Positions 6,324 to 64,000 of a stretch of DNA of 64,000 bases are shown here, piece by piece. The notes beneath the pieces are model-generated. The model saw nothing but the letters and a program-made list of their open reading frames with translations, was not told where the DNA came from and searched no databases. Position numbers and translations under genes: made by a program. Origin of the DNA: Ostreococcus lucimarinus. Lineage: Eukaryota. Within the stretch, counting starts at the first letter, position 1. Each line of letters opens with the position of its first letter. The stretch lies in NCBI GenBank assembly GCA_000092065.1, contig CP000597.1; one strand, written 5' to 3'.

Positions 6324-6444
6324 CGCGGGCGTCGACGACGTCCGCGACGGGACGGACGACGACCGCGACGCGCGCCGGCGGGCGCGGCGCGCGCGCGACG
6401 CGATGGACGACGCGCGCGAACGACGACGGCGCGGCGAACGATTC

Positions 6445-6473
6445 GACGACGACGACGACGACGACGACGACGG
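6445..6473. repeat. (GAC)n trinucleotide microsatellite.
   Basis: cgacgacgacgacgacgacgacgacgacg is read directly. It lies in the divergent spacer, or the presequence region, between lysA and the binding-protein gene. Confidence 0.8.
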
Positions 6474-6529
6474 GCGCGCGCACGCGACGCGCGCTCGCGC
6501 GCGACGCGGCGTCGAGCGCGATCGCGGCG

Positions 6530-11569: not shown

Positions 11570-12733
11570 TTACAGCTTTTCGTCGCCGTCCGCAGCGCGC
11601 AACTGACCGAGTTCGGTCGGCGCTTGCGTGCCACAGATGGTGGACTTACCGAAAGCGGCGGCGGTGTCAACACCCTTGGCCTTCTCTTCGGCAATCTTGC
11701 TCGAGATCCACTCAAACGTAACCTTCAAGCCGTCCGCGAGCTTGACAGACGGCGCCCAACCGAGCTTTTCCTTGATGAGTTCGTTGTTGGAGTTGCGACC
11801 GCGCACACCTTCCGGACCCGGAATATGCTTGATTGGCAAGTCCTTGCCCGCGAACTTCAACGTCATGGCTTGCATATCGTTCATGGAGATCATTTCGTCG
11901 GAACCGATGTTCACCGGCTCGGCGAAGTCGCTCTTGGTGAGACGCAAGATGCCCTCGACGCAATCGTCGATGTAGGTGAAAGAGCGCGTTTGCTTACCGT
12001 CACCCCACATTTCGACTTCGCTTTCAGCCGTCGCAGCCTTACGGCAGAACGCCGCCGGCGCCTTTTCGCGACCGCCCTTCCACGTGCCGTACGGACCGTA
12101 AATGTTGTGGAATCGACCGATGCGCGTCTGAATACCAAAATCTTGCTGGTAGTGCTTGTACACTTCCTCGCTCGCGAGCTTTTCGAGACCATACGCGTCT
12201 TGCGGCTGCGCCGGCCACGCGCTCGCTTCCTTCAACCCGTCTTGCATCTCCGTGCTCAACTGCGTGCCCTCCGGGTAGATGCACGCGCTCGACGCGTAAA
12301 AGCATCGCGTCACGCCCTGCACCCGCATCGCTTCCATCATATTGAAGGAAATCATCACGTTGTTGTAGAAGATGACGGAGTGGTTGGACTGAATGAATCC
12401 CATCCCTCCCATGTCCGCCGCGAGGTTGAAGCAGTGGTCGCACCCCTCGAGAACCTTTTTACAGTTTTCGTACAGCCTCAAATCAGCCAAGATGAACTCA
12501 TCGCAGAACATCGCCTCTTCCATGTGTTCATTGCGCTTCCAATCGCACGCCACGACGTGATGTCCCTCCTCTTTCAATCGTTTCGCGAGATGCGACCCGA
12601 TGAAACCTCCCGCGCCCGTCACGCAAATCTTCAGCTTCTTCTCCGGCCAGTACTCCTCCGTGCCGTAAATCCCGCGCAATTCGTACCCTGCGCGCGGCGA
12701 AACATCGTCAGTATTATTTTCCCTCCAAATCAT
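11570..12733 (-). CDS. GME: GDP-mannose 3,5-epimerase (NAD-dependent epimerase/dehydratase; ascorbate pathway).
   Basis: LKICVTGAGGFIGSHLAKRLKEEGHHVVACDWKRNEHM; YASSACIYPE; strongly GME-like along its whole length. The start was set at the ATG (CAT 12731-12733) of MIWRENNTDD. The ORF extends 117 codons further upstream as Arg-rich text. Confidence 0.8.
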   Translation of the reverse strand: MIWRENNTDDVSPRAGYELRGIYGTEEYWPEKKLKICVTGAGGFIGSHLAKRLKEEGHHVVACDWKRNEHMEEAMFCDEFILADLRLYENCKKVLEGCDHCFNLAADMGGMGFIQSNHSVIFYNNVMISFNMMEAMRVQGVTRCFYASSACIYPEGTQLSTEMQDGLKEASAWPAQPQDAYGLEKLASEEVYKHYQQDFGIQTRIGRFHNIYGPYGTWKGGREKAPAAFCRKAATAESEVEMWGDGKQTRSFTYIDDCVEGILRLTKSDFAEPVNIGSDEMISMNDMQAMTLKFAGKDLPIKHIPGPEGVRGRNSNNELIKEKLGWAPSVKLADGLKVTFEWISSKIAEEKAKGVDTAAAFGKSTICGTQAPTELGQLRAADGDEKL

Positions 12734-13372
12734 CGCCTCCCGCCCCGCGCGCGTCGTCGCGCGCGCCGCACCGCGCCGCCACGCGCGCCGTTTCCGGGTT
12801 CCGCACTCGCCCACGTCATCGGATAACTCGCGCGCGTCGCGCGTCGCGCGACGCCGCGCGCGACGCCGCGCGATCCGCGGGCGGCGCGAAAAATTCCCAC
12901 GCCTCGTTCTCGAGGTCGTCACGCACCGGCGGCCGCCATGTCGAGCGACGTTCGTCTCGTCTCGTTGTGCGGACGCGCGACGCTTTTCGCGCGTCGCGGC
13001 GGCGGCTCTCCGCAAACGACGCCGCGTGCGCAAACAGTGACGCGCTAAAAACCTGCGCGCGACGCGCGCACTTTTTCGTCTCATCGGCCTTTAAGACATC
13101 GCGATGCGATATCGCGCGCGCGTTCGTCCATTATGACTCATTCGACGGTTCGCGACTCGTCGATTGATTCGCCGCTAAAATCCGTCCCCTTGGCGGCGGC
13201 GCCCGGTCGCGGCGCCGCATTCCTCGACCGACGCGCGCGACGCGCGGGCGTGGACGCGCGCGCGGACGCGAACGAACGCGAGCGAACGATCGAGACGCCT
13301 CGCGATCGCGACGACCGCGCTCGAGCGGGCGAGCGGGCGCGAGGGGACGACGGGAACGGGCGACGCGTGACG

Positions 13373-13734
13373 ATGGCGCCGCCGCCGGCGAGCGCGGTGG
13401 ATGACGCGCGACTCGGGCCGTTGCTGGCGCCCGTGGAGGAGTATCTGCGCGCGTGTGGACTGAATAAGACGGTGCAAGCGATGCGGAGCGAACGGAAGCT
13501 GAAGGCGCACCGGACGCTGGTGGAGGCGAGCGAGGCGGCGGGGGCGGACGCGAGCGAGGGCGGCGCCGAGGCGCTCGTGGAGGCGTGGGAGGAGAGTCGA
13601 GGGGCGAAGCGCAAGGCGAATGATTCTAGCGGAGGGTCGGCGGCGAAGAAGGCGAAACCGGCGGATTCGAGCTCGTCGAGCGAGTCGGGGAAGAAAAGCG
13701 CGAGTGGGTCGGGTTCGAAGTCGTCGTCTTCGTC

Positions 13735-13770
<36 letters not shown>

Positions 13771-14996
13771 GGAGGAAGCGAAGAAGGAAAAGTCCAGCTC
13801 CTCGTCGTCGAGCAGCAGCAGCAGTAGTAGCTCGGAGAAAAAGGAGAAGTCGAGCGCATCTTCGAGCGATAGCGAATCGGACAAGAGCAAGAGCAAGAGC
13901 AAGAGCAAGAGTAGCTCTTCGTCTTCGTCTTCGTCTTCGTCTTCGTCTTCGTCTTCGTCTTCGTCTGAAAAACAGGAGGAAGCCAAGAAGGATGACTCGT
14001 CTTCGTCTTCGTCGTCTTCGTCGTCTTCGTCGTCTTCGTCAGAGAAGAAGAAAGAAAGCTCTTCCTCCTCATCGTCGTCCTCCTCCTCCTCTTCCTCGTC
14101 GGAAAAGAAGGAAGAAGCCAAGAAGGATTCCTCCTCTTCCTCCTCTTCCTCCTCTTCCTCCTCTTCCTCCTCTTCCTCCTCTTCCTCCTCTTCTTCTTCC
14201 TCGGAACAAAAGAAGGAAGAGACCAAGGATGACGCCTCCTCGTCATCTTCTTCTTCATCATCTTCTTCTTCTTCTTCTTCCTCGGAAGAAAAGAAGGAAG
14301 AGGAGAAGGATGACTCTTCGTCTTCCAGCAGCTCTTCGAGCTCTTCCTCAAAGTCCAAGTCCAAGTCCAAGTCGTCCTCATCTTCATCTTCATCTTCATC
14401 TTCATCTTCTTCGGAAAAGGCGGAAGAAGAGGCGAAGAAGGATGATTCTTCCTCGTCATCAAGCTCTTCAAGCTCCTCCTCCGACGCGAAATCTGAGTCC
14501 AAGTCGTCTTCGTCGTCCTCGTCTTCGTCTTCCAGCAGCTCGTCGAGCTCGAGCGACAAGGTACGCAAGGATAGCGCGAAGGGAAGCAAGAGCGCGCCTC
14601 CGGGCGAGAAGCAACCGGGTGTGCCTTTTCAAAGGTGAGAGCCTTCTTGTCCTCGGTGGCGCGTTTGACACCCTCATCGATGCATCGACACTCGTCTCGT
14701 TTGAAAAACTCGCGACTATTAACTCGTTTCTGAGACTGACGGCGACGCGTTATTCGTTTTCTTCACCGCACAGAGTTAATAGCGCGGAATGGTTGGGCAA
14801 GAAAGGCTCGTGGGATATGTCTTATGAAGGTACATTCGGTGATGCGGGATACGGCGCCAAGGCGCAGGAAGTCCTCGGACAAGTGCGTGGCGCGCGTTTT
14901 CAACACGAGAAGAACAAACGTAAACGAAGCTACTTTGGCGGAGCCATTGACGACAGCGCCGTGAATTCTATTAAATTTCAATCGGATAGCGAATAA
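13373..14996 (+). CDS. Nopp140/SRP40-like nucleolar phosphoprotein (LisH motif, Ser-acidic/Lys-basic repeats, SRP40_C domain), two exons: 13373..14634 and 14774..14996.
   Basis: LisH-like LGPLLAPVEEYLRACGLNKTVQAM near the N-terminus. About 330 aa of alternating poly-Ser and EEKKEE blocks follow. After splicing, the C-terminus is GSWDMSYEGTFGDAGYGAKAQEVL...RFQHEKNKRKRSYFGGAIDDSAVNSIKFQSDSE, matching the conserved SRP40_C tail. The intron runs 14635..14773 (AG|GTGAGA ... CACAG|A) and restores the frame. Confidence 0.6.
14635..14773 (+). other. Spliceosomal intron (139 nt) in the Nopp140-like gene.
   Basis: The donor GTGAGA lies at 14635-14640 and the acceptor CAG at 14771-14773. The in-frame TGA at 14636-14638 is removed by splicing, and exon 2 continues in the only frame carrying the SRP40_C-like tail. 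Confidence 0.6.
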
Positions 14997-54671: not shown

Positions 54672-57600
54672 ATGCGGAAAAATTACCTGCTGAAGACGAA
54701 GGGCGTGCTGCGGTGCTGCACGCTGTGCGAGATCTTGGTGCCGGTGATTTTCTTGGGGCTCATGTGCCTGCCGAAGGCGTTGGTGCCGGATTCGAGGACG
54801 AACGATGAGCTGTCGAGGCCGTACGCGCTCGCGGGGGGGATCGAGAGCGTGAACCAGAGGACGCCGAGGGGGTTTCGGTTCGTGGTGGCGCCGGCGAGCG
54901 CGGAGACGCTGGAGCTCGGACGGCGAGCGTACGTGCACGCGATGTGCTTGAGCGAGCGGTCGATCGCGAAGGATAGGAGCTATGCGAACGATTTTGAGGA
55001 CGGGAAAAAGAATTTGTTGAATTTGATGGATGATCAGGTGCAGGCGTCGTCGAACGTCGCGACGGGGGTCAAATCGGCGTTCGCCGCGCTGTCGTACGAC
55101 GTCACGGCGATGCCCGCGGCGTGTTCGGATGCGTGCCTGCAGGACTCGTCGTGCGTGACGAGTACGTGGGACGCTATTTTAGACGAAGTCGTCGTGACCA
55201 AGGCGGATGAAGCCGCGGCGATGGCGTACGTCGCCAGTCGTCCCGGGGAAGTTTTCGCGTACGCGCGTTTTGATTCGGGAGGTAACGTCGCGAGCACGCG
55301 CGCGTTCGCGTACACGCTGCGCTTGAATTCGACGAACGTTGCGAACGAGGACAAGGCGGTGGCGGCGTTCATGGAGGACGACTTTACCGGGAGATGGGAC
55401 AGCGCGTACAACACAGATGATTGGGCAAAGTACAAGTCGTTTGCGTATGCGCAAAACGCGTTCGACGCGGCGATCATCGACATGAAGGACGGAGGCAGTG
55501 CGTATAGCGTGACGTTAGACACATCTCTCAAGCCATTTCCTTGGTTGGGGTTCGACTACAACGTCGGTGGCGTCATCGCCGCAGCCTTTTACGGCTTCGT
55601 CGGCTCGCTCGCGTTTCAAACCAACGTCGTCCTCGTCATGAAATCCATCGTCGTTGAGAAGGAATTGCGATTGCGAGAAGGGATGAAGATGATGGGTATG
55701 TCAAACACGATGTTCTGGTGGTCTTGGTTCTTCACGCACTGGCTTTCGGCGATGATTTCCGTCGTCTTGATCACGTTGGTCGGGATTTACCCGTTTTCGT
55801 ACACGAATCAATTCATTCAATTCATCTTTTACACGTTTTGGGTGGCGTCTTTAACGCTTTGGAACTTTTGGATCTCGACATTCTTTTCCAAATCGATCAC
55901 CGCCACCATAGTCGGCTGTTTCGCATACGTCCTCACCATGGTTCCTTCCATCGCGGTCCGCATCACGCAGCCCGAGGGCAGCGGCGCTTGGATCTTAGCG
56001 TGCATATTTCCATCCGGGGCGATGAACATGTGGGGCGCGGCGCTGGCTATTCTGGAGGTGAATAAGAAGGGTATCACGATGGAGACATTCAACGAAGACG
56101 TAACGCTCAAGGGGAACGTCACGTGCGCTGGTATCTTAGGCATGGTGATTTTCGATTGCTTATTTTACGCGTTTCTCACCTTTTACTTCGACGCCGTGTG
56201 GAAAACCGAATACGGCACGCGCCAGCCTCCTTGGTTTCTATTCACGCGTAAGTACTGGTGCGGTGACGCGTCGAAGGTCATCGATGATGAAACGCTTGGA
56301 ATGCACGAGCAAGAGTCTGGGGACGCCGTCGAGCCGCTCACGAAGCAACAGATGAAGTCAGCCAGCGTCGTCGTTCGCGGTTTGACGAAGAAGTTTGGCG
56401 ACGAAGTCACTGCGGTGGATAATTTGAGTATGACCTTTGTTCCTGGCCAAGTGAGTGGATTACTTGGTCACAATGGTGCTGGTAAAACGACGACGATTAG
56501 TGTTCTCACGGGTATGATTGAACGGACCTCTGGTCGAGCGACTATTGACGGGTACGACACCAAAACCCAGATGCGAGAAATTCGCGCCGGTCTCGGTATC
56601 TGCCCTCAATTCGACGTCCTTTGGCCGACACTCACGGTGCGCGAACATTTACAATTATACGCCGCATTTGCGGGTATGCAAAAAGAGGATGTAGAACGAG
56701 AACTCAAGCAAGTCGTGGAAGAGGTTGCGCTGACGGAGAAGATTGACGCGAACTCGAAGGATCTATCGGGTGGGATGAAGCGTAAGCTCTCGCTCGCTAT
56801 TGCGTTTATCGGCAGTCCGTCCGTAGTGTTTCTCGACGAACCAACGTCTGGGATGGACCCTTACTCGCGACGATTCACGTGGGACGTCATTCGCAAACGA
56901 GCCGCCAACTGCACAGTCTTGCTCACGACGCACTTTTTGGACGAGGCTGATTTGCTGTGCGATCGAGTCGCCATCATGAGCGCTGGTCATCTTGCATGCA
57001 TCGGTTCGCCACTATTCCTCAAGTCTAAATTCGGCACTGGTTATCTGCTCACGTTTGCGCGTCATAGTCGCGCGTCATCGACGCAAATCGCGTCGATGAC
57101 GCAGCACAACTCGAACGCCATGCTGCGAGTGATTCAACACTTCGTACCCAAAGCCGTTGTTCACAGCGACGTCGGCGCCGAGCTATCGTTTTCTTTACCA
57201 TTCGAGTCTACCGGCGACTTTTCTGCGTTATTCAAGGCTCTCGATGAGCAGATCGGGAATTTAGGGTACGCAAGTTACGGCATCTCGTGCACCACGCTCG
57301 AGGAGGTATTTCTATCTCTCGCACATGGGGTGAAGGCGGCGTCCACGGCGCAATCGAAAGGCAAGGTTGTGGACTTAGACGCACCCGTGGAAGAAGCCGA
57401 CGAATGTGAAGACCTCGATGCAAAATTGGTCGCTGGCAACCGCAAGGACATTCGCCAAACCTACGCGAAGGGTGGTGCCTTACTCAGAATCCAACTCAAA
57501 CGCTTGCTCTGGAAGCGTTGGCTCAATTGGCGTCGCAGCATGCGGTCGATATTCATGCAACTTCTCGTACCTTGTTTGCTCGTCGTGCTCGCGCTTTATT

Positions 57601-60113
57601 TGACCACGTTGAGTTTTGAACCTGGGAGCACGATTTCGGCGAAAGAAATCAGTCGAAAGCTACTCAATAACAAGAAGACCCTCGTGACGTACTCCCCTTC
57701 GGCGACTGAGGCGGTCGCCGTCACGACGAACTTGATGACAGACACTTACGCGTTACGCTCTCAGTATCAACCCGAGATTTCGTGTATGTGCAACTGCTTA
57801 GCGAAAGATCAAACGATCACGATGTCTGCCATGACGTGTTGCGCGTATAACAGAACCATTGAGTCAACGTGTCGAGTAGCGGCATTGGCACGTCTTGCGG
57901 GCGGGACGTATTGCGTCAAGTCTCCAAAAGGCTACGATGTACAAAGAGACATCGTTTCTATGGGGCTATCGTGCTCGTCCATGATAGATGACAGTATCGA
58001 TAGTTACTTACTAGACGTCCAAGAGCCATCGGTGCCTTGTGACATGCAACCGACGGGATCGCCGTGCGACGTCTTGTACGTTGACGAGTACGACGGCACG
58101 CGCTATAGTCACACGCTGTACGGACATCAAACAGCCTTACACGGTATGCCGACCGTCATCAACAACGTGAATAGTGCTATTTTGCGCAAGCGCACGTCCG
58201 ATTCTAGTGCGAGCATCACGACTACGATTCACTGGTATCCGAGCGCGGTGAATACACTGAAGGAAGGAGACATCGAAGAGCCGGACAACTCTGGAACTAC
58301 GTTCATCGTTTCCATGTTCGTCGTCATGGGGCTCGCTGTTCTCAGTGCTGGGATTTCAATCTTTCCAGTGTACGAACGATGCAATAACTCCAAACACTTA
58401 CAGCTCGTGAGTGGAATCGATAAACGAATTTATTGGCTGGCGCACTACGTCGCAGACGCCATACAGCTCGTTATTCCGTTCGCCGTCATCGTCGTCATTT
58501 TTGCCGGTTTCAATGCGTCTTACTTCCAAGGTCAACTCGGGGCGATCACTGTTTTGTTGGGTTTTTTCATGTTGACCTCTATTCCACACGCGCATTATCA
58601 AGGATTTTGGTACACTAGCGAATACTACACCTTTGTTGGGCAAATCGGAACAAACACCACCGTTGGCGTGATCACCACCATCGCCGGTATCGTCACCGAT
58701 GCCCTGAAAGACTTGAATAAAGAGACGTTGTTGGTGAGCAAAATCTTCAATTACACGTTTCCGCTCATCATTCCGCACTTTAGTTTCGGGAAAGGTCTAT
58801 ACGACATCGCACAAAATGGTTTGGACAAGACGCGGAAAATTTTCCGCGAGGATTGCATGTGCCTCGTCCCCGTCGTACCAAAGGGTTCTTTCAACGTCAT
58901 CGCCGACGATTTGGGCTATTTGATCGGAACATTTTTCATGTGGAGCGCTTTGTTGTTTTACAAAGAGTATAAAGAGATTTTCGCAAGTTGGATACTGATG
59001 AAACGTGGAAACTCGCAAGAGGTATCGCCGAGCGTCGACGAAGATGAAGACGTGCGAGCCGAGCGCGAACGCGTGCTCTCAGGAGACATCGACGGTGATG
59101 GCGTCATCATGGACCGCTTATCCAAGACGTACAAAGGCTTGTCAGCGAGTTCTACAAAGCTCGCCGTTCGAAATCTCAGCGTGGGTCTACATCGCGATCA
59201 ATGCTTTGGTTTGCTCGGCATCAACGGCGCGGGAAAGACGACGACATTCAAGATGCTCACGGGCGAGTTCCCACCATCTGCGGGTGACGCGATCATTCAA
59301 GATCGAGACGGTGCGTCTCACAGTGTGCGTACTGATCTTAACGACGCGCGACGATTGATGGGATATTGTCCTCAGTTCAACGGCTTGCAACCAAACTTTA
59401 CCGCACGCGAGCACATTGAATTCTACGCCGCCATTCGCGGAATGCCGACGGAGATGATTCCGCGCGTGACGGAAGATCTGCTGCAGCGTATGGGTTTGAC
59501 TTTGTATGCCGATAGACAAGCTGGAACATACAGTGGAGGCAACAAGCGTAAGCTTTCTGTCGCGTTGTCGCTCGTCGGCGAACCAGAAGTCGTCTTCTTG
59601 GATGAACCATCAACTGGTATGGATCCCGAAGCGAGACGGTTCATGTGGGACGTGATCTCGTCCATGATGGTTGGACGCACGATTGTTCTCACATCGCACT
59701 CTATGGAGGAGTGTGAGGCACTCTGTAATCGCATCGGTATCATGGTGAGTGGCGAGTTCAAGTGTCTTGGCTCCTTGCAGCACTTGAAGTCGCGCTTTAG
59801 TGAAGGATACTCCATCGATCTGCGCTTTTCCGACGGAAAAGGAAACGCCGTTATGGAAGCGCTACGAGCCAAACACGGAGACATTGGAGCGGAGATAGTA
59901 GAAACACACGCCACAGAAATTAAACTTCGCGTGATGAATCCCGAAATGAAACTTTGGCGTATTTTTGACGCCGTCGAAGCTTTGAAGCAGTCGGACGACG
60001 ACGGCGCAAGAATTGACGACTACTCCGTGTCGCAGACGACTTTAGAGCAGGTCTTCATCCGATTTGCAAAGGAGCAAACCGAGGAGATACACGCGGCACC
60101 GGGATTACAGTAG
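54672..60113 (+). CDS. ABC transporter, subfamily A (full transporter: TMD-NBD-TMD-NBD), 1813 aa, single exon.
   Basis: ATG at 54672. An N-terminal TM then a large extracellular domain, as in ABCA. NBD1 reads LLGHNGAGKTTTISVLTG, signature LSGGMKRKLSLAIAF, FLDEPTSGMDP. NBD2 reads LLGINGAGKTTTFKMLTG, YSGGNKRKLSVALSL, FLDEPSTGMDP. Confidence 0.85.
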   Translation: MRKNYLLKTKGVLRCCTLCEILVPVIFLGLMCLPKALVPDSRTNDELSRPYALAGGIESVNQRTPRGFRFVVAPASAETLELGRRAYVHAMCLSERSIAKDRSYANDFEDGKKNLLNLMDDQVQASSNVATGVKSAFAALSYDVTAMPAACSDACLQDSSCVTSTWDAILDEVVVTKADEAAAMAYVASRPGEVFAYARFDSGGNVASTRAFAYTLRLNSTNVANEDKAVAAFMEDDFTGRWDSAYNTDDWAKYKSFAYAQNAFDAAIIDMKDGGSAYSVTLDTSLKPFPWLGFDYNVGGVIAAAFYGFVGSLAFQTNVVLVMKSIVVEKELRLREGMKMMGMSNTMFWWSWFFTHWLSAMISVVLITLVGIYPFSYTNQFIQFIFYTFWVASLTLWNFWISTFFSKSITATIVGCFAYVLTMVPSIAVRITQPEGSGAWILACIFPSGAMNMWGAALAILEVNKKGITMETFNEDVTLKGNVTCAGILGMVIFDCLFYAFLTFYFDAVWKTEYGTRQPPWFLFTRKYWCGDASKVIDDETLGMHEQESGDAVEPLTKQQMKSASVVVRGLTKKFGDEVTAVDNLSMTFVPGQVSGLLGHNGAGKTTTISVLTGMIERTSGRATIDGYDTKTQMREIRAGLGICPQFDVLWPTLTVREHLQLYAAFAGMQKEDVERELKQVVEEVALTEKIDANSKDLSGGMKRKLSLAIAFIGSPSVVFLDEPTSGMDPYSRRFTWDVIRKRAANCTVLLTTHFLDEADLLCDRVAIMSAGHLACIGSPLFLKSKFGTGYLLTFARHSRASSTQIASMTQHNSNAMLRVIQHFVPKAVVHSDVGAELSFSLPFESTGDFSALFKALDEQIGNLGYASYGISCTTLEEVFLSLAHGVKAASTAQSKGKVVDLDAPVEEADECEDLDAKLVAGNRKDIRQTYAKGGALLRIQLKRLLWKRWLNWRRSMRSIFMQLLVPCLLVVLALYLTTLSFEPGSTISAKEISRKLLNNKKTLVTYSPSATEAVAVTTNLMTDTYALRSQYQPEISCMCNCLAKDQTITMSAMTCCAYNRTIESTCRVAALARLAGGTYCVKSPKGYDVQRDIVSMGLSCSSMIDDSIDSYLLDVQEPSVPCDMQPTGSPCDVLYVDEYDGTRYSHTLYGHQTALHGMPTVINNVNSAILRKRTSDSSASITTTIHWYPSAVNTLKEGDIEEPDNSGTTFIVSMFVVMGLAVLSAGISIFPVYERCNNSKHLQLVSGIDKRIYWLAHYVADAIQLVIPFAVIVVIFAGFNASYFQGQLGAITVLLGFFMLTSIPHAHYQGFWYTSEYYTFVGQIGTNTTVGVITTIAGIVTDALKDLNKETLLVSKIFNYTFPLIIPHFSFGKGLYDIAQNGLDKTRKIFREDCMCLVPVVPKGSFNVIADDLGYLIGTFFMWSALLFYKEYKEIFASWILMKRGNSQEVSPSVDEDEDVRAERERVLSGDIDGDGVIMDRLSKTYKGLSASSTKLAVRNLSVGLHRDQCFGLLGINGAGKTTTFKMLTGEFPPSAGDAIIQDRDGASHSVRTDLNDARRLMGYCPQFNGLQPNFTAREHIEFYAAIRGMPTEMIPRVTEDLLQRMGLTLYADRQAGTYSGGNKRKLSVALSLVGEPEVVFLDEPSTGMDPEARRFMWDVISSMMVGRTIVLTSHSMEECEALCNRIGIMVSGEFKCLGSLQHLKSRFSEGYSIDLRFSDGKGNAVMEALRAKHGDIGAEIVETHATEIKLRVMNPEMKLWRIFDAVEALKQSDDDGARIDDYSVSQTTLEQVFIRFAKEQTEEIHAAPGLQ

Positions 60114-60146
60114 ATATTGTACAGTATATTGCAACGAAATAAATCG

Positions 60147-61793
60147 CTACCCAGACGCCGCAGGCGTCTCCAAGCAAACACCTCTGGCGTCGAGCTTTCT
60201 CGCGCGCGTCATGGACGCGGGGTGCAGCAACGCGTTGATTTCCGCCACCGTTGCGTAAGTCGCAGCTATTTCAGCGACAGGTCGCCCGGTGGCCAACGCC
60301 TCTTTCGCCACCGCCGAAGATTTTTTGTATCCAATCAACGGCAAGAGAGCAGTGACGATGCCGATGGAGTTTTCGACGGATTTCTTGCACACTTCCTCGT
60401 TCGCCGTGATGCCGTCGATACACTTCACGCGGAGAGTGTTAAGTCCACGCTCCATCATATCCATATTATTCAATAAATTGTAAACGATCAACGGTTCAAA
60501 AACGTTCAACTGCAACTGCGCCGCCTCCGACGCGTGGGCAATCGAAGCGTCTGTGCCCATGATTTGAAAACACACCTGGTTCATCACTTCTGGGATGACG
60601 GGATTGATTTTACCTGGCATGATAGAGCTTCCAGGGGCAACTGCAGGAAGATTGATTTCATTAAACCCACATCGCGGGCCGCTGGACAGCAACCGCAAAT
60701 CGTTGCAGATTTTTGAAATCTTCACGGCGACGCGGCGCAAGATGTTAGAAAACAACAGAAAACTCGACGTCGAGCTCGATGCCTCAATAAAATCTTGCGG
60801 TGAGCGTAACGGAAGTCCGGTGAGCTCCGATAATGCCGCCACAGCCTCCTCAGAAAACGCCTCGTCGGCGCAAATCGAAGTCCCGATCGCGGTGCCGCCG
60901 AGATTCATCTCATACATTTGGTCGACGTTTCGTTCCAGAAACGTCAAATCCGCCTCTAGCGTCGCCGCAAACGAGTGAAATTCTTGACCCAGCGTCATTG
61001 GTACCGCATCTTGAAGCTGTGTGCGTCCCATCTTGATTATTCCTTGAAACTCGTCACCCTTCGCGCGCAAACTGACGATCATCTTTTTCAACGCCTCGAC
61101 GACGATGCCGTGCTTCAACACTACCGCGAGTTTTGCGGCGCTCGGGTACGCATCGTTCGTGCTTTGACACAAATTTACGTGATCATTCGGATTTACCACG
61201 CTGTACTCGCCGATGGGCACCCCCAAAAACCGCGCCGCCAAATTCGCGATCACCTCGTTCGCGTTCATATTCGTCGACGTCCCGGCGCCGCCCTGAATGA
61301 CGTCCACCGCGAAGTGATGATGATGTTCCTCCGAATCGATCAGCTCATCGCACGCGAACGATATAGCGCGATACACATCATCCGGCAGCAGCCCTATCTT
61401 CCGATTCGCCACCGCGCACGCCTTCTTCGTCAACGCCAGCGCTCGTATGAATTCCGGGTACTTTCTCAGCGTCGTCCCCGTGATGTGATAATTTTCCATC
61501 GCCCGCGCCGTGGCGATCCCGTACAGCGCCTCCGACGGTATTTCCATCGACCCGAGCAAATCGCTCTCCGTGCGGTGCGTTTTCACGTGCTCGAACCGCA
61601 CCGAGGCGTACGCGCGACGTCGTAACGCTTTTTCCCCATCTTGTCCCGCCAAGTGCCCAGCGGTCGTTACGCCGCTCCACGGCGCCTCATCGCGACGCGC
61701 GCCCTCGAGCGCGCGTCCGCGGCGCAGCATAAATATCGCGCTTTCATCGCGCGCCAGCGCGCGCAGCGCTCGCGCGCTCGAGCGCGCGAACAT
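60147..61793 (-). CDS. aspA: Aspartate ammonia-lyase (aspartase; fumarate-lyase superfamily) of bacterial type, with a mitochondrial-type presequence.
   Basis: GSSIMPGKINPVIPEVMNQVCFQIMG, QLQLNVFEP, IDGITANEEVC and NSIGIVTALLPLIGY follow E. coli AspA ([26 protein letters not shown]...INGITANKEVC...NSIGIVTYLNPFIG), not fumarase C (NPTQCEALT). The ATG at 61791-61793 begins MFARSSARALRALARDESAIF. The ORF-track start at 61811 is TTG. Confidence 0.8.
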   Translation of the reverse strand: MFARSSARALRALARDESAIFMLRRGRALEGARRDEAPWSGVTTAGHLAGQDGEKALRRRAYASVRFEHVKTHRTESDLLGSMEIPSEALYGIATARAMENYHITGTTLRKYPEFIRALALTKKACAVANRKIGLLPDDVYRAISFACDELIDSEEHHHHFAVDVIQGGAGTSTNMNANEVIANLAARFLGVPIGEYSVVNPNDHVNLCQSTNDAYPSAAKLAVVLKHGIVVEALKKMIVSLRAKGDEFQGIIKMGRTQLQDAVPMTLGQEFHSFAATLEADLTFLERNVDQMYEMNLGGTAIGTSICADEAFSEEAVAALSELTGLPLRSPQDFIEASSSTSSFLLFSNILRRVAVKISKICNDLRLLSSGPRCGFNEINLPAVAPGSSIMPGKINPVIPEVMNQVCFQIMGTDASIAHASEAAQLQLNVFEPLIVYNLLNNMDMMERGLNTLRVKCIDGITANEEVCKKSVENSIGIVTALLPLIGYKKSSAVAKEALATGRPVAEIAATYATVAEINALLHPASMTRARKLDARGVCLETPAASG

Positions 61794-61866
61794 TTCGATC
61801 GCGCGTCGCAAAGTCGCGAATTCCGCGCCCGCGCCACGTCAGCACATCACACGCCGACGCCGACCG
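61794..61866. promoter_or_regulatory. Putative bidirectional promoter and 5'-UTR spacer (73 bp) between the divergent aspartase and TPM-domain genes.
   Basis: Only 73 bp separate the two opposing ATGs (61793 minus, 61867 plus). No TATA is evident. The call rests on position only. Confidence 0.3.
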
Positions 61867-62655
61867 ATGCCGACCGTCGCGCGCGCGCCGGCGCGATGCG
61901 CGCGCGCGACGCGCGCGACCGCCGGCGCGACGCGCGCGCGACGCCGCGACGCGACGCCGCGAGGGACGACGGCGCGACGGCGCGACGAAATCGTCCGCCG
62001 CGGCGCGCGCGATCGCGCCGACGACGCCGCGGCGGCGCCGGTCGACGCGTTCGACGCGGTGAAACGCGGCGCGGCGTCGCTTGCGTTGGCGCTGACGCTC
62101 AGCGCGCACGCGTGCGCGCCCGCGAGCGCGCGATTGGAGGGGGTGAACAACCCGGCGCTGCTGCCGCCGGGACCCGCGGCGCCGGTGCTCGACGTCGCGG
62201 GATACCTCACGAAATCCGACGTCGCGCGCCTGACGACCGAGGTCGAGGCCCTGGAGAAAGACACGGGCGTGCGGTTGCGCGTGCTCGCGCAGGCGTACCC
62301 GCAGACGCCGGGATTGGCGGTGAAGGAGTACTGGAACGTGGACGACGACACCGTCGTCTTCGTCGCCGATCCGGGCTTGGGGAACATTTTAAACTTTAGC
62401 GTCGGTGGGAATCTCGATTTAGAGATCCCGCCCTCGTTTTGGACGCGGTTGGCGAATAAGTACGGCACGAAGTTTTACTGGAGCGAACGCGGGGAGGAGG
62501 CGAGCATCTCCGCCGCGGTGCGAGCCATCGACGCGTGCGCGCGCGAGCCGTCGGGGCGCGCCAAGTGCTCGAAAATTATGGAGTACGACGACGGCGGCGC
62601 CGGCGGATTCACCGACGGCGACGCCCCCAAGGGTTTAGGCAAGTTTTTTAAATAA
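61867..62655 (+). CDS. TPM-domain (TLP18.3/Psb32-like) thylakoid-lumen protein.
   Basis: TPM_phosphatase-like LDVAGYLTKSDVARLTTEVEALEKDTGVRLRVLAQAY...DDDTVVFVADPGLGNILNFSVGGNL. The N-terminus MPTVARAPARCARATRATAGATRARRRD... has a hydrophobic ASLALALTLSAHACAPASA before the mature domain, i.e. a bipartite transit-plus-lumenal signal. ATG at 61867. Confidence 0.55.
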   Translation: MPTVARAPARCARATRATAGATRARRRDATPRGTTARRRDEIVRRGARDRADDAAAAPVDAFDAVKRGAASLALALTLSAHACAPASARLEGVNNPALLPPGPAAPVLDVAGYLTKSDVARLTTEVEALEKDTGVRLRVLAQAYPQTPGLAVKEYWNVDDDTVVFVADPGLGNILNFSVGGNLDLEIPPSFWTRLANKYGTKFYWSERGEEASISAAVRAIDACAREPSGRAKCSKIMEYDDGGAGGFTDGDAPKGLGKFFK

Positions 62656-62660
62656 TTTTT

Positions 62661-62690
62661 CGCTTCGTTTCGCTTCGTTTCGCTTCGTTC
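62661..62690. repeat. (CGCTTCGTTT)3 tandem decamer in the 3' UTR of the TPM-domain gene.
   Basis: cgcttcgtttcgcttcgtttcgcttcgttc is read directly, immediately after the TAA stop at 62653-62655. Confidence 0.8.
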
Positions 62691-62922
62691 CGCGCTCGGC
62701 GTCGCCGCGAGCCGCGCGCGCCTTCGCGCCGCCGCGAAAACCCACACACGAGGGTTTTAATGACGCTCCCATCGAACGCCGACCCGTCGCCCCCGCACAC
62801 TTCGTCGCCCGCGCGCGCGAACCGCTCAAAAGTTCGCACGGTTTTTACCGCACGACCTCGTTCCGCTCGATCGCCCTCGCGCTCGTCGCACAGACGCACA
62901 GACGCGCACTCATCGCGCCATC

Positions 62923-63306
62923 ATGTTCACCCGCTCGCCGACCGCGGCGACGATCAAAACGCCGCTCGTCGCGCACCGCGCGACGCGCCGCACCGCGCGA
63001 CGCGCGGTGACCACGGCGGGGATGAAATCTTCCGAGTGCCAAGCCATGGGCGACCGCGTGCTCGTGCTCGCGGACAAGGCGGAGAGCCAAACCAAGGGTG
63101 GGCTGTTTTTGGCGGGCGGCGCGGGCGCGGGCGGACCGGGATCGAGCGTCACGGGAAAAGTGGCGAGCGTCGGTGAAAACGTGAAGGGAATCAAAAAAGG
63201 GGACGCGGTGCTGATCAATGGATTCTCGGGGACGGAGGTTGAGTTCGAGGATGGTGAGAAGGGGAAGTTTATCAACGCCGTCGACGTGTTGGCGGTGCTC
63301 GGATAG
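62923..63306 (+). CDS. 10-kDa chaperonin (Cpn10/GroES), organelle-targeted.
   Basis: DRVLVLADKAESQTKGGLFLAGGAGAGG...GKVASVGENVKGIKKGDAVLINGFSGTEVEFEDGEKGKFINAVDVLAVLG is a GroES fold with its mobile loop. The presequence MFTRSPTAATIKTPLVAHRATRRTARRAVTTAG precedes it. ATG at 62923. Confidence 0.8.
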   Translation: MFTRSPTAATIKTPLVAHRATRRTARRAVTTAGMKSSECQAMGDRVLVLADKAESQTKGGLFLAGGAGAGGPGSSVTGKVASVGENVKGIKKGDAVLINGFSGTEVEFEDGEKGKFINAVDVLAVLG

Positions 63307-63477: not shown

Positions 63478-64000
63478 TTAATGGTCGGCGTCCGGGTTGT
63501 GGAAGTGGAACTTGCTCGCGCCGAGCGCTTCCATGACGGAATCGAAGATACCGAATTGACCGGCGGTGAGAGTACCGATCATGACGCAACGCGCGGCCAA
63601 ACCTTGGGTGCAGAGCTTGACAACGCCAGTCTCCGCGGCGATGCGGCCGAGACGCGTCACAATGGAACCGGTGCCCCCCGCGCCGGCTTTGTTCACCTTA
63701 GACAACAAGGTATCGGCGGGGTGGGAGATGATGGCGGCGACGACACCAGCGACGACACCAGAAGACAGAGAGACGGAGACGTTTTCAGAGCTCGTGCATT
63801 CCTTGGGAGACTTGCCCATGGACTCGTAGATGGCTTCGGCGGCGCGCCCTTGGACGGCGAACTTGGCCATGGTGTACGGCACTTGCTTGGCCAGAATCGG
63901 ACCGAAACCAGAGTAGAAACCGCTGATGATGCCTTCTTCGCTCGCCATCTTCGCCATGGCGCTGAGAGTGGACGGCGCGTACGTCGGGTTGGACACCAAA
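63478..64000 (-). CDS. Mitochondrial carrier family protein (phosphate-carrier-like), C-terminal part. The gene continues beyond the window end.
   Basis: Carrier repeat features: PADTLLSKVNK (the Px[DE]xx[KR] signature variant), GFYSGFGPILAKQVPYTMAKFAVQ, and a C-terminal TM (GVVKLCTQGLAARCVMIGTLTAGQFGIFDSVMEAL). Stop at 63478. Confidence 0.6.
   Translation of the reverse strand, partial: LVSNPTYAPSTLSAMAKMASEEGIISGFYSGFGPILAKQVPYTMAKFAVQGRAAEAIYESMGKSPKECTSSENVSVSLSSGVVAGVVAAIISHPADTLLSKVNKAGAGGTGSIVTRLGRIAAETGVVKLCTQGLAARCVMIGTLTAGQFGIFDSVMEALGASKFHFHNPDADH

What the first reader, a model, noticed from the sequence alone, without database searches (positions are those of the whole stretch)
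60147..62655. Bacterial-type aspartase gene with a mitochondrial presequence, head-to-head with a thylakoid-lumen TPM gene across a 73-bp spacer
Motif order and sequence (NPVIPEVMNQVCFQIMG, QLQLNVFEP, IDGITANEEVC) follow AspA, not class II fumarase. Aspartase is mainly bacterial. Here it carries an N-terminal MFARSSARALRALARD... targeting-like extension, indicating a nuclear, organelle-targeted enzyme of bacterial ancestry. Its ATG lies 73 bp from the opposing ATG of a TPM/TLP18.3-like gene. Both promoters and both 5' UTRs must fit in 73 bp. This is an extreme bidirectional arrangement.
Basis: partly seen in the sequence, partly recalled or inferred. Interest (0 to 1): 0.5.

Follow-up and report, generated by a model that had tools for sequence, protein, structure and literature searches.

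The report
Ostreococcus aspartase gene, tight divergent pair
This is the nuclear gene for a bacterial-type aspartase in the tiny marine green alga Ostreococcus, already annotated in public databases, with a probable mitochondrial targeting peptide; it lies head-to-head, 73 bp apart, with a thylakoid-lumen protein gene, which is normal for this very compact genome.

Summary
A 548-codon ORF (60147-61793, minus) and a 262-codon ORF (61867-62655, plus) start 73 bp apart.

The first ORF is a true aspartate ammonia-lyase. It passes the NCBIfam aspartase model, its closest solved structures are aspartases, and it has the AspA residue at every motif that separates AspA from fumarase C.

The window is Ostreococcus nuclear DNA. 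The O. tauri orthologue (80% identical) is already annotated as aspartate ammonia-lyase. Orthologues exist in Micromonas and Bathycoccus, and dinoflagellate transcripts may be the sister group. The nearest other relatives are bacterial (53-59% identity).

All green-algal orthologues carry variable, Arg/Leu-rich amphipathic N-terminal extensions. Ostreococcus copies also have a conserved R-A-[YFLM]|[AS] motif. Both features look mitochondrial, but this is unproven.

The partner gene is the orthologue of the soluble lumenal protein LMTP1/TL15 (PDB 9H70), not TLP18.3.

The 73-bp spacer is not extreme. The same gene pair has 141-277 bp spacers in other Ostreococcus lineages. Other divergent pairs in this window have first-ATG spacers of 83 bp or less. 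Overlapping UTRs are documented for O. tauri.

One new detail: a GACGTG(G) element upstream of the aspartase start is the only 6-mer shared by all five Ostreococcus spacers.

Verdict: real, ordinary, largely known.

The parts
60147..61793 (-). Aspartate ammonia-lyase (AspA) gene: a single exon of 548 codons plus the stop codon
   Evidence: ORF. Pfam Lyase_1 plus FumaraseC_C, both full length. NF008909 scores 659 bits against a cutoff of 510. The exact protein is on 24 or more public contigs annotated as aspartate ammonia-lyase.
61569..61793 (-). N-terminal extension (residues 1-75), absent from bacterial aspartases; a probable mitochondrial presequence
   Evidence: Translation. Extensions are present but not sequence-conserved in all green-algal orthologues. 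Arg at positions 4, 8, 11 and 15, and a maximum helical hydrophobic moment of 0.87. AlphaFold pLDDT is 31-54 over residues 1-70.
61602..61616 (-). R-A-Y|A-S (residues 60-64): a candidate R-3 site for the mitochondrial processing peptidase
   Evidence: Translation. R-A-[YFLM]-[AS] is kept at the equivalent place in five Ostreococcus lineages and is not part of the bacterial linker. That it is a cleavage site is an inference.
60195..61568 (-). Catalytic aspartase core (residues 76-533)
   Evidence: Aligns end to end with the bacterial aspartase structures 3oce, 6wng and 1jsw. The AlphaFold model is confident, and the top 19 PDB fold matches are all aspartases, with TM-scores of 0.90-0.95 normalised to the target.
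60600..60632 (-). SS-loop signature GSSIMPGKINP, which carries the catalytic serine and lysine
   Evidence: Translation. Alignment with E. coli AspA and FumC.
60162..60185 (-). RGVCLETP: a C-terminal tail motif specific to the green-algal clade
   Evidence: Translation. RGVC[LI][DE][TS]P is conserved in Ostreococcus, Micromonas and related lineages, is degenerate in Bathycoccus, and is absent from bacterial and dinoflagellate homologues. Its function is unknown.
61794..61866 (.). 73-bp head-to-head spacer between the two start codons (68.5% GC)
   Evidence: Nearly invariant in five environmental contigs. The orthologous spacers are 141, 181 and 277 bp in other Ostreococcus lineages.
61833..61840 (-). 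GACGTGGC: an ACGT-core element whose first base lies 47 nt upstream of the aspartase ATG and whose nearest base lies 27 nt from the TPM ATG
   Evidence: GACGTG is the only 6-mer shared by the spacers of five Ostreococcus lineages. It is always in the same orientation, at -32 to -65 from the aspartase ATG, and only 0.35% of shuffles share any 6-mer. The suggestion that it binds a bZIP-type factor is an inference.
61867..62655 (+). Gene for a soluble thylakoid-lumen TPM-domain protein, the orthologue of LMTP1 / TL15
   Evidence: Pfam TPM_phosphatase scores 27 bits against a cutoff of 22.1. PDB 9H70 matches at E=1.2e-62 over residues 87-238, including both conserved cysteines. 9H70 is Chlamydomonas LMTP1, a lumenal Mn-binding protein (bioRxiv 10.1101/2024.10.28.620569).
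61867..62130 (+). Bipartite transit peptide (residues 1-88): an Arg/Ala/Thr-rich stromal part followed by the hydrophobic stretch SLALALTLSAHACAPASA ending in A-x-A
   Evidence: Translation. The match to the mature 9H70 protein begins at residue 87. The region is a degenerate CG-rich tandem repeat with 82% GC. The cleavage position is an inference.
60114..60146 (.). 33-bp AT-rich gap between the convergent stop codons of the ABCA transporter gene (54672-60113, plus) and the aspartase gene
   Evidence: It shows that the 3' side is compacted as strongly as the 5' side.

Best explanation
The locus is an ordinary, densely packed stretch of an Ostreococcus nuclear chromosome.

The minus-strand gene encodes a functional aspartate ammonia-lyase. 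This is a homotetrameric enzyme in which the SS-loop serine abstracts the C-beta proton of L-aspartate, giving fumarate and NH4+ in a reversible reaction. The gene came from bacteria before the Mamiellophyceae radiated. It has since gained a fast-evolving N-terminal targeting peptide and a short conserved C-terminal tail.

The targeting peptide most likely directs the enzyme to the mitochondrial matrix (my estimate is about 0.65). There the enzyme would link the aspartate pool to the fumarate step of the TCA cycle and to ammonium.

The plus-strand gene encodes the soluble thylakoid-lumen TPM protein LMTP1/TL15, a photosystem II maturation factor, with a bipartite transit peptide.

The head-to-head pairing is genus-level synteny. 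In this species the spacer has shrunk to 73 bp. It keeps a conserved GACGTG(G) element that probably belongs to the core promoter region. Transcription start sites may lie in the spacer or inside the neighbouring gene, because overlapping UTRs are common in this genus.

Shown here: gene identities, orthology, conservation, synteny and the conserved motif. Inferred: enzyme activity, organelle, cleavage sites and promoter function.
For: Aspartase identity:
- NF008909 scores 659 bits (cutoff 510), while the fumC equivalog scores 425 bits (cutoff 665).
- The best solved homologues are aspartases at E=1e-153 to 1e-125, against fumarases at about 1e-98.
- The protein has the AspA residue at GGAGTS, QSTND, GRTQLQDAVP, NPVIPE and QLQLNV.EP.
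- The top 19 fold matches are all aspartases.

Eukaryotic and conserved:
- The exact protein is on many marine metagenome contigs with eukaryotic neighbours.
- O. tauri Q00SM0 'aspartate ammonia-lyase' is 80% identical and lies in the same synteny on chromosome 18.
- Orthologues exist in Micromonas pusilla and M. polaris (the latter from a transcriptome) and in Bathycoccus prasinos.

Bacterial ancestry:
- In the neighbour-joining (NJ) tree the Mamiellophyceae clade has 99% bootstrap support.
- Adding three unnamed relatives gives 100%, and adding a dinoflagellate-like group gives 68%.
- The clade sits among bacterial sequences of 53-59% identity, many of them fused to a cNMP-binding domain.

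Targeting:
- Every green-algal orthologue has an extension of 29-215 aa.
- Compared with the chloroplast transit peptides of LMTP1 orthologues from similar organisms, the extensions have more bulky hydrophobic residues, fewer Ser/Thr/Pro, and a higher helical moment (p=2e-5 to 5e-4, not corrected for phylogeny).
- A conserved R-A-[YFLM]|[AS] motif is present.
- The extension is predicted to be disordered.

LMTP1.

Spacer.
Against: - No localisation predictor or experiment was available. Green-algal chloroplast transit peptides can also be amphipathic, and only one chloroplast reference family was used.
- The score for the strict TIGR00839 aspA equivalog model (586 bits) is below its cutoff (681), so the clade is divergent from canonical bacterial AspA.
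- Enzyme activity is untested.
- The tree is neighbour-joining on 468 columns. The link to dinoflagellates has only 68% support, and no donor lineage is resolved.
- No transcript data were found, so transcription start sites and co-regulation are unknown.
- The GACGTG element is not enriched in intergenic DNA of the window. It is absent upstream of the aspartase gene in Micromonas and in the proximal Bathycoccus region.
Confidence: 0.8

Rival explanations
1. The aspartase is imported into the chloroplast, or is dual-targeted, rather than going to mitochondria. There it would act in plastid aspartate and ammonium metabolism alongside GS/GOGAT.
For: The extension is Arg/Ala-rich, as are chloroplast transit peptides in this genus, for example the neighbouring LMTP1 gene. 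Green-algal chloroplast transit peptides are known to resemble mitochondrial presequences (my own knowledge). No classifier was run.
Against: The aspartase extensions differ systematically from the LMTP1 transit peptides: 6.4 vs 4.2 bulky hydrophobic residues, 3.5 vs 6.3 Ser/Thr, 0.65 vs 1.6 Pro, and a helical moment of 0.65 vs 0.47. Arg residues at 4, 8, 11 and 15 lie on one helix face. An R-3 type R-A-Y|A-S motif is conserved in Ostreococcus. Fumarate is a mitochondrial TCA-cycle intermediate (established biochemistry).
Confidence: 0.2
2. The protein belongs to the aspartase/fumarase superfamily but has a different activity in the alga, such as fumarase or another lyase.
For: It scores below the strict TIGR00839 equivalog cutoff (586 vs 681 bits). 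It carries a clade-specific C-terminal tail. No assay exists.
Against: All five motifs that separate AspA from FumC carry the AspA residue, including Gln instead of His in GRTQLQDAVP and NPVIPE instead of NPTQCE. The protein is 47% identical to E. coli AspA against 36% to FumC. NF008909 is passed. Its structural neighbours are aspartases.
Confidence: 0.07
3. The 73-bp spacer is a specialised shared bidirectional promoter that co-regulates aspartate/ammonium metabolism with photosystem II maturation. On this view it is an exceptional arrangement kept by selection.
For: The pairing is conserved in at least four Ostreococcus lineages. The spacer is almost invariant within the species. A GACGTG(G) element is the only 6-mer shared by all five spacers.
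Against: The spacer length varies four-fold between lineages (73-277 bp). The pairing is absent in Micromonas and Bathycoccus. Equally short or shorter first-ATG divergent spacers occur elsewhere in the same 64 kb. About half of O. tauri genes lie in bidirectional pairs, and UTR overlap is common. The conserved element keeps its distance to the aspartase ATG, not to the TPM ATG. No expression data were available.
Confidence: 0.15
4. The aspartase ORF is bacterial contamination or a very recent horizontal transfer in this assembly.
For: The core has lower GC (54%) and lower GC3 (0.67) than several neighbouring genes.
Against: The flanks are identical on many independent contigs. Synteny with O. 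tauri chromosome 18 and three other Ostreococcus lineages is conserved. Other clearly eukaryotic genes in the window have the same GC3: ABCA 0.65, kinesin 0.66. The nearest bacterial proteins are only 53-59% identical.
Confidence: 0.01

Closest known systems
Bacterial aspartate ammonia-lyase (AspA, EC 4.3.1.1; E. coli AspA PDB 1JSW, Bacillus YM55-1 AspB 1J3U/3R6V, Brucella 3OCE, Elizabethkingia 6WNG)
   Same: Same Lyase_1 plus FumaraseC_C architecture, the same SS loop GSSIMPGK.NP, and the same AspA-specific residues. It is 47% identical to E. coli AspA and about 52% identical to 3OCE, with the same fold (TM-score 0.94-0.95 normalised to the target).
   Different: It is encoded in a eukaryotic nucleus. 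It carries a 75-aa N-terminal targeting-like extension and a clade-specific C-terminal tail, RGVCLETP. It scores below the strict TIGR00839 equivalog cutoff.
Ostreococcus tauri Q00SM0 / XP_003084178 ('Fumarate lyase' / 'Aspartate ammonia-lyase') and its orthologues in Micromonas and Bathycoccus
   Same: A direct orthologue, 80% identical, with the same neighbours (HAD hydrolase, mitochondrial carrier, Cpn10, TPM, ABCA) and the same head-to-head partner.
   Different: The spacer is 181 bp in O. tauri against 73 bp here. The sequence of the N-terminal extension is largely different. In Micromonas and Bathycoccus the gene has other neighbours.
Bacterial cNMP-binding-domain/aspartase fusion proteins (PF00027 + PF00206 + PF10415; Acidobacteriota, Methylomirabilota, Delongbacteria and other MAGs)
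   Same: These are the closest non-eukaryotic relatives of the catalytic core, at 53-59% identity.
   Different: The algal protein has no cNMP-binding domain. Its N-terminal extension is unrelated to the bacterial linker.
Class II fumarase (FumC / mitochondrial fumarate hydratase)
   Same: Same superfamily, same fold and same SS loop. Mitochondrial fumarases also carry presequences.
   Different: Only 36% identity. The FumC-specific residues (TGSGTQ, QSSND, GRTHLQDATP, NPTQCE) are all replaced by the AspA versions. The fumC model scores far below its cutoff.
LMTP1 / CPLD31 (Chlamydomonas Cre15.g636050, PDB 9H70) = Arabidopsis At5g52970 TL15B, the thylakoid lumenal 15-kDa TPM protein
   Same: The mature domain aligns over 152 residues at E=1e-62, including both cysteines of the redox pair. 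The protein is soluble with no C-terminal membrane helix, and it has a bipartite lumen-type transit peptide.
   Different: Manganese binding and the role in photosystem II maturation are known only for the Chlamydomonas protein. The transit peptide here is unusually CG-repeat rich.
TLP18.3 / Psb32
   Same: Same Pfam family, PF04536.
   Different: It is a different paralogue. TLP18.3 structures are not matched even at E<=1. According to the LMTP1 paper, TLP18.3 has no cysteines and groups separately.

Membership tests
Aspartate ammonia-lyase (AspA) | Lyase_1 domain plus FumaraseC_C domain, both full length | tested here: met
   PF00206 matches positions 1-312 of 312 at E=9e-83. PF10415 matches positions 1-54 of 54 at E=5e-14.
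Aspartate ammonia-lyase (AspA) | SS-loop signature GSSxMPxKxN, which carries the catalytic Ser and Lys | tested here: met
   GSSIMPGKINP at residues 388-398.
Aspartate ammonia-lyase (AspA) | AspA residues rather than FumC residues at the discriminating motifs | tested here: met
   GGAGTS (FumC has TGSGTQ), QSTND (QSSND), GRTQLQDAVP (GRTHLQDATP), NPVIPE (NPTQCE) and QLQLNVFEP (NFELNVFRP).
Aspartate ammonia-lyase (AspA) | Score above the curated cutoff of an aspartase HMM (NCBIfam NF008909, a subfamily model) | tested here: met
   659.3 bits against a cutoff of 510.
Aspartate ammonia-lyase (AspA) | Score above the cutoff of the strict equivalog model TIGR00839. This is a classifier threshold, not a biochemical feature. 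| tested here: not met
   586.3 bits against a cutoff of 681.2. The algal clade is divergent from canonical bacterial AspA.
Aspartate ammonia-lyase (AspA) | Closest solved structures, by sequence and by fold, are aspartases | tested here: met
   3oce, 6wng, 1jsw and 1j3u rank first by sequence. The top 19 Foldseek matches are all aspartases.
Aspartate ammonia-lyase (AspA) | Catalyses L-aspartate <-> fumarate + NH4+ | not testable with these tools
   This needs an assay of recombinant enzyme.
Class II fumarase (FumC) | FumC signature residues and a score above the TIGR00979 cutoff | tested here: not met
   425 bits against a cutoff of 664.75. All signature positions carry the AspA residue.
Mitochondrial matrix presequence | An N-terminal extension relative to bacterial homologues, present in the orthologues but poorly conserved | tested here: met
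   75 aa here, and 29-215 aa in the other green-algal orthologues. It evolves fast within the species complex: P0131 has 8 changes in the first 75 aa.
Mitochondrial matrix presequence | Positively charged and able to form an amphipathic helix | tested here: met
   No Asp or Glu in residues 1-15. Arg at positions 4, 8, 11 and 15. The maximum hydrophobic moment is 0.87, and the orthologue mean of 0.65 compares with 0.47 for lumen-protein transit peptides.
Mitochondrial matrix presequence | An R-2 or R-3 processing-peptidase motif before the mature domain | tested here: met
   R60-A-Y|A-S64. R-A-[YFLM]-[AS] is conserved in five Ostreococcus lineages. The motif definition comes from my own knowledge, and cleavage is inferred.
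Mitochondrial matrix presequence | Prediction by a trained classifier (TargetP, PredAlgo, DeepLoc) or experimental localisation | not testable with these tools
LMTP1 / TL15 lumenal TPM protein (PTHR35514) | Close homology of the mature domain to LMTP1, including the conserved cysteine pair, and no membrane helix | tested here: met
   9H70 matches at E=1.2e-62 over residues 87-238 with both Cys aligned. The C-terminus EYDDGGAGGFTDGDAPKGLGKFFK is hydrophilic.
LMTP1 / TL15 lumenal TPM protein (PTHR35514) | Bipartite transit peptide with a hydrophobic segment ending in A-x-A | tested here: met
   KRGAASLALALTLSAHACAPASA|RLEG lies immediately before the start of the 9H70 match. This was judged by inspection only.
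TLP18.3 / Psb32 | Closest TPM paralogue is TLP18.3, and a C-terminal membrane anchor is present | tested here: not met
   No TLP18.3 chain is matched at E<=1, and the protein has no hydrophobic C-terminus.
Bidirectional (shared) promoter pair | Head-to-head genes less than 1 kb apart | tested here: met
   73 bp between the two ATGs.
Bidirectional (shared) promoter pair | Both transcripts start in the spacer and are co-regulated | not testable with these tools
   No transcript-end data were available. A metagenome scan returned only eight long genomic contigs.

The most novel reading that the evidence does not exclude
Mamiellophyceae, together with a related dinoflagellate clade, may have recruited a bacterial aspartase as a mitochondrial enzyme. 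It could run in the amination direction to recapture photorespiratory or catabolic NH4+ directly into aspartate. It could instead act as a light/dark-switched shunt from aspartate to fumarate. The green-lineage-specific cysteine-containing tail RGVC[LI][DE][TS]P would act as a regulatory (possibly redox) switch. In Ostreococcus, transcription would be coupled to a photosystem II maturation factor through a shared ACGT-box (GACGTGG) in a minimal bidirectional promoter.
Probability: 0.12. Interest if true: 0.55.

Novelty: already known. Interest (0 to 1): 0.27.

Why it matters
Aspartase is rare in eukaryotes. This enzyme is conserved and organelle-targeted across the most abundant marine picoeukaryotic green algae, and it may share an origin with dinoflagellate copies. 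It is a small but concrete case of bacterial metabolism becoming fixed in phytoplankton nitrogen and carbon metabolism. I found no paper on it in the searchable library.

It would matter more if the enzyme were shown to work in ammonium recapture, or if its C-terminal tail proved to be regulatory. The tight divergent spacer with one conserved 6-7-bp element could serve as a compact test bed for minimal promoters in Ostreococcus, which can be transformed. As it stands, the gene is correctly annotated in public databases and the genomic arrangement is typical of the genus.

Tried and rejected
1. Transcript ends. I scanned JGI metagenome contigs with a 36-nt exact pattern just inside the aspartase 5' coding region. 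Only eight long genomic contigs were found, so there is no information on transcription start sites.

2. GACGTG as a general promoter motif. It is not enriched in intergenic DNA of the window (9 observed, 8.1 expected). GACGTGGC occurs 4 times against 5.6 expected. It is also absent upstream of the aspartase gene in Micromonas and in the proximal Bathycoccus region.

3. Base composition as a sign of recent transfer. The aspartase core has GC3 of 0.67, within the range of clearly eukaryotic neighbours (0.55-0.86), so this was rejected.

4. The odd N-terminus of the cluster representative P0001 (MRGASELCAG...). I interpret it as an assembly fold-back at the palindrome GCGCGCTCGAGCGCGC, not as an alternative start.

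5. Apparent 'YASV' similarity between the algal pre-core segment and one bacterial linker (P0089). It is not shared by other bacterial fusion proteins, so it is coincidence.

6. Dinoflagellate spliced leader. I looked for it at the 5' end of transcript-like contig L107, with an inconclusive result. The dinoflagellate assignment rests on one EukProt label, Biecheleria cincta.

7. Literature. Six searches on aspartase, aspartate ammonia-lyase or fumarate lyase combined with Ostreococcus, Micromonas, Bathycoccus, prasinophyte or dinoflagellate found no paper that discusses the algal enzyme. The supplements of the phytoplankton HGT survey PMC7190310 are not held. Derelle et al. 2006 is not held.

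8. Donor lineage.

Full report
**What is in the sequence.** The stretch 60147-62655 holds two open reading frames whose start codons face away from each other. The minus-strand ORF runs from the ATG at 61793 to the stop at 60147. The plus-strand ORF runs from the ATG at 61867 to 62655 and gives 262 aa; this is the only in-frame ATG upstream of the mature domain. The gap 61794-61866 is exactly 73 bp.

**Source organism.**
- Other ORFs in the window encode a kinesin, a cyclin, a RING-finger protein, an ABCA-type transporter, a mitochondrial carrier and a Cpn10.
- The exact aspartase protein is found on many marine metagenome contigs with the same neighbours.
- It is 80% identical to O. tauri Q00SM0/XP_003084178, which NCBI names 'Fumarate lyase' and UniProt names 'Aspartate ammonia-lyase'. 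That gene lies in the same gene order on O. tauri chromosome 18.
- The window is therefore nuclear DNA of another Ostreococcus species. It is probably O. lucimarinus, but no tool output gave me that name.

**The enzyme is an aspartase.**
- Pfam finds full-length Lyase_1 and FumaraseC_C domains.
- The NCBIfam aspartase subfamily model NF008909 scores 659 bits (cutoff 510). The class II fumarase equivalog scores 425 bits (cutoff 665). The strict aspA equivalog TIGR00839 scores 586 bits, below its cutoff of 681, so the clade is divergent from canonical bacterial AspA.
- The best solved homologues are aspartases or aspartase-like lyases: 3oce, 6wng, 1jsw and 1j3u at E=1e-153 to 1e-130. Fumarases begin at about 1e-98.
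- I aligned the protein with E. coli AspA and FumC, taken from NC_000913. It is 47% identical to AspA and 36% to FumC. It has the AspA residue at every discriminating motif: GGAGTS, QSTND, GRTQLQDAVP, GSSIMPGKINPVIPE and QLQLNVFEP.
- An AlphaFold model is confident for residues 71-535. Its top 19 PDB matches are all aspartases.
- The catalytic mechanism is taken from the literature on AspB and AspA as I remember it. The SS-loop serine abstracts the C-beta proton, and ammonia is then eliminated from an enediolate intermediate. It was not tested here.

**Evolutionary placement.**
- The first 36 database hits are eukaryote-like proteins with N-terminal extensions. They include Micromonas pusilla CCMP1545, M. 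polaris (from an MMETSP transcriptome, so the gene and its extension are transcribed) and Bathycoccus prasinos.
- The next hits are bacterial proteins at 53-59% identity. Most are fused to an N-terminal cNMP-binding domain.
- I built a neighbour-joining tree from 468 columns and 119 sequences, rooted on FumC, with 100 bootstraps. The Mamiellophyceae clade has 99% support. Adding three unnamed relatives (P0016, P0020, P0033) gives 100%.
- A group of short, single-gene, transcript-like contigs joins this clade at 68%. One of its 90% clusters contains a protein labelled Biecheleria cincta, a dinoflagellate.
- The green-algal and dinoflagellate-like sequences share APGSS where bacteria have QPGSS or QAGSS.
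- A scan of GTDB genomes returned only bacteria from many phyla at 45-55% identity, with no obvious donor.
- Bacterial ancestry is therefore supported. The transfer is old, predating the Mamiellophyceae radiation. Base composition gives no sign of a recent arrival.

**The N-terminal extension.**
- Any product of this ORF carries at least 52 extra residues. The only other Met before the catalytic core is M22.
- All green-algal orthologues have extensions of 29-215 aa that do not align with one another.
- Within the species complex the extension changes faster than the core while keeping the reading frame (P0131).
- In the window protein, Arg residues at positions 4, 8, 11 and 15 lie on one face of a helix, and the maximum hydrophobic moment is 0.87.
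- I compared 20 aspartase N-termini with 37 N-termini of the chloroplast-lumen protein LMTP1 from similar organisms. The aspartase set has more bulky hydrophobic residues (6.4 vs 4.2), fewer Ser/Thr (3.5 vs 6.3), fewer Pro (0.65 vs 1.6) and a higher helical moment (0.65 vs 0.47). The p-values are 2e-5 to 5e-4, but the sequences are not phylogenetically independent.
- About 15 residues before the core, five Ostreococcus lineages keep R-A-[YFLM]-[AS]; here it is R60-A-Y|A-S64. This fits the R-3 rule for the mitochondrial processing peptidase and is not a leftover of the bacterial linker.
- AlphaFold gives pLDDT of 31-54 for residues 1-70.
- I read this as a mitochondrial presequence with a probability of about 0.65. 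Chloroplast or dual targeting remains possible.

**The partner gene.**
- Pfam places it in the TPM family (27 bits, cutoff 22.1).
- Its only solved relative at E<=1 is 9H70, at E=1.2e-62 over residues 87-238, with both cysteines aligned.
- 9H70 is Chlamydomonas LMTP1 (CPLD31). This is a soluble, Mn-binding thylakoid-lumen protein that acts redundantly with TLP26 in photosystem II maturation. Its Arabidopsis counterpart is At5g52970 (TL15B) (bioRxiv 10.1101/2024.10.28.620569).
- Database homologues in Chlorella and Micractinium are named 'thylakoid lumenal kDa chloroplastic' (the names appear with the mass missing).
- The protein has no hydrophobic C-terminus.
- Residues 1-88 form a bipartite transit peptide ending ...SLALALTLSAHACAPASA|RLEG.
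- 'Thylakoid-lumen TPM gene' is therefore right, and 'TLP18.3-like' is the wrong paralogue.

**The 73-bp spacer in context.**
- The head-to-head pairing is kept in at least four Ostreococcus lineages, with ATG-to-ATG spacers of 73, 141, 181 and 277 bp. In a fifth lineage the contig ends inside the spacer, so the partner gene was not seen.
- The pairing is absent in Micromonas and Bathycoccus.
- I made a rough first-ATG gene map of the window. It shows other divergent pairs at -16 bp (an ornithine/arginine-decarboxylase-like gene and a solute-binding-protein gene), 48 bp (an epimerase gene and a 501-aa ORF), 65 bp and 83 bp. These starts are unverified and may be over-extended.
- On the 3' side, the aspartase and ABCA stop codons are 33 bp apart.
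- Published work reports about 2,288 bidirectional transcript pairs in O. tauri (PMC4035068). It also reports UTR overlap so frequent that an RNA-seq assembly concatenated neighbouring genes (PMC4378021). Mean intergenic distances in Micromonas are 167-211 nt (PMC4815162).
- The arrangement is therefore at the short end of normal for this genus. Nothing requires both 5' UTRs to fit inside the spacer.

**A conserved element in the spacer.**
- I oriented the spacers of five Ostreococcus lineages on the aspartase gene. The only 6-mer they share is GACGTG, and it is GACGTGG in four of the five.
- It always has the same orientation and lies 32-65 nt upstream of the aspartase ATG. Its distance to the TPM start varies widely.
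- Only 0.35% of mononucleotide shuffles give any shared 6-mer.
- The motif is not a general promoter word in this window. It is missing upstream of the aspartase gene in Micromonas and in the proximal Bathycoccus region.
- An ACGT core of this kind is typical of plant bZIP sites. That is my own knowledge and a lead, not a test.

**Verdict.**
- The finding is real and correctly read in its main point.
- It describes a gene that public databases already annotate as aspartate ammonia-lyase, in a genomic arrangement typical of Ostreococcus.
- Several things appear undescribed in the literature I could search: the probable mitochondrial targeting, the green-clade C-terminal tail RGVC[LI][DE][TS]P, the possible common origin with dinoflagellate aspartases, and the conserved GACGTG(G) element.
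- These details are modestly interesting but not surprising.

Noticed in passing
window 60162-60185 (minus strand): The aspartase ends in a short tail, RGVCLETP. The pattern RGVC[LI][DE][TS]P is conserved in Ostreococcus, Micromonas and related unnamed lineages, and is degenerate in Bathycoccus (RGVDIESPQ). Bacterial and dinoflagellate-like homologues lack it. From memory, C-terminal proteolysis activates E. coli aspartase, so the tail might be regulatory.
   Followed up: partly
window 61833-61840 (minus strand); L009 about 3947-3954; L013 about 3936-3941; L025 1038-1044; L026 110-117: GACGTG(G) is the only 6-mer shared by the TPM/aspartase spacers of five Ostreococcus lineages. It is always in the same orientation, 32-65 nt upstream of the aspartase ATG.
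   Followed up: yes
proteins P0037-P0115 (not in the window): The closest bacterial relatives of the algal aspartase are about 620 aa long and fuse an N-terminal cyclic-nucleotide-binding domain (PF00027) to aspartase. They come from Acidobacteriota, Methylomirabilota, Delongbacteria and other MAGs. I did not look into whether this fusion has been described.
   Followed up: no
L107/L108 and proteins P0055, P0065, P0075, P0085, P0087, P0095, P0096, P0102, P0120: A clade of aspartases sits on 1.6-2 kb single-gene, transcript-like contigs with short N-termini (MDAAF.PNK...). One cluster is labelled as the dinoflagellate Biecheleria cincta. The clade joins the green-algal clade with 68% bootstrap support and shares APGSS in the SS-loop region.
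   Followed up: partly
window 60114-60146: Only 33 AT-rich bases separate the convergent stop codons of the ABCA transporter gene and the aspartase gene. The gap contains the palindrome TGTACA and an AATAAA, so the 3' UTRs must overlap or be very short.
   Followed up: no
window 61878-62011 and 61748-61788: The transit-peptide coding regions on both sides of the spacer are degenerate CG-rich tandem and inverted repeats, with 82% GC in the TPM transit peptide. They include the perfect 16-bp palindrome GCGCGCTCGAGCGCGC at aspartase codons 3-8. One database variant (P0001) looks like an assembly fold-back at this palindrome.
   Followed up: partly
window 62658-62693: A tandem repeat, TTTCGCTTCG x3.6, lies immediately after the TPM stop codon.
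   Followed up: no
window 4782-6323 (minus) and 6308-7696 (plus): An ornithine/arginine-decarboxylase-like ORF and an ORF for a bacterial-type extracellular solute-binding protein (SBP_bac_6/8) lie head-to-head, and their first-ATG ORFs overlap by 16 bp. This may be a polyamine-related pair and another gene of bacterial type.
   Followed up: no
window 11570-13084 (minus) and 13133-14638 (plus): An NAD-dependent epimerase/dehydratase ORF and a 501-aa ORF with no Pfam match are divergent, with only 48 bp between their first ATGs.
   Followed up: no
L024 1-5118 (Bathycoccus contig): In Bathycoccus the aspartase gene has a 145-215 aa low-complexity N-terminal extension and a longer C-terminal tail ending ...FWSYMYPPERQLFQSAG.M. 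It lies next to, and divergent from, a pyruvate phosphate dikinase gene.
   Followed up: no
protein P0125 (environmental variant of the window protein): One metagenome contig encodes Leu instead of the proposed start Met (…AIELFARSS…). If this is real, translation in that variant would have to begin at M22 (MLRRGRALEG…), which is also Arg-rich.
   Followed up: no
window 62923-63306 (plus): A Cpn10/GroES-like gene of 127 aa has its own N-terminal extension of about 35 aa (MFTRSPTAATIKTPLVAHRATRR…). A mitochondrial-carrier gene runs off the window end at 63478-64000.
   Followed up: no
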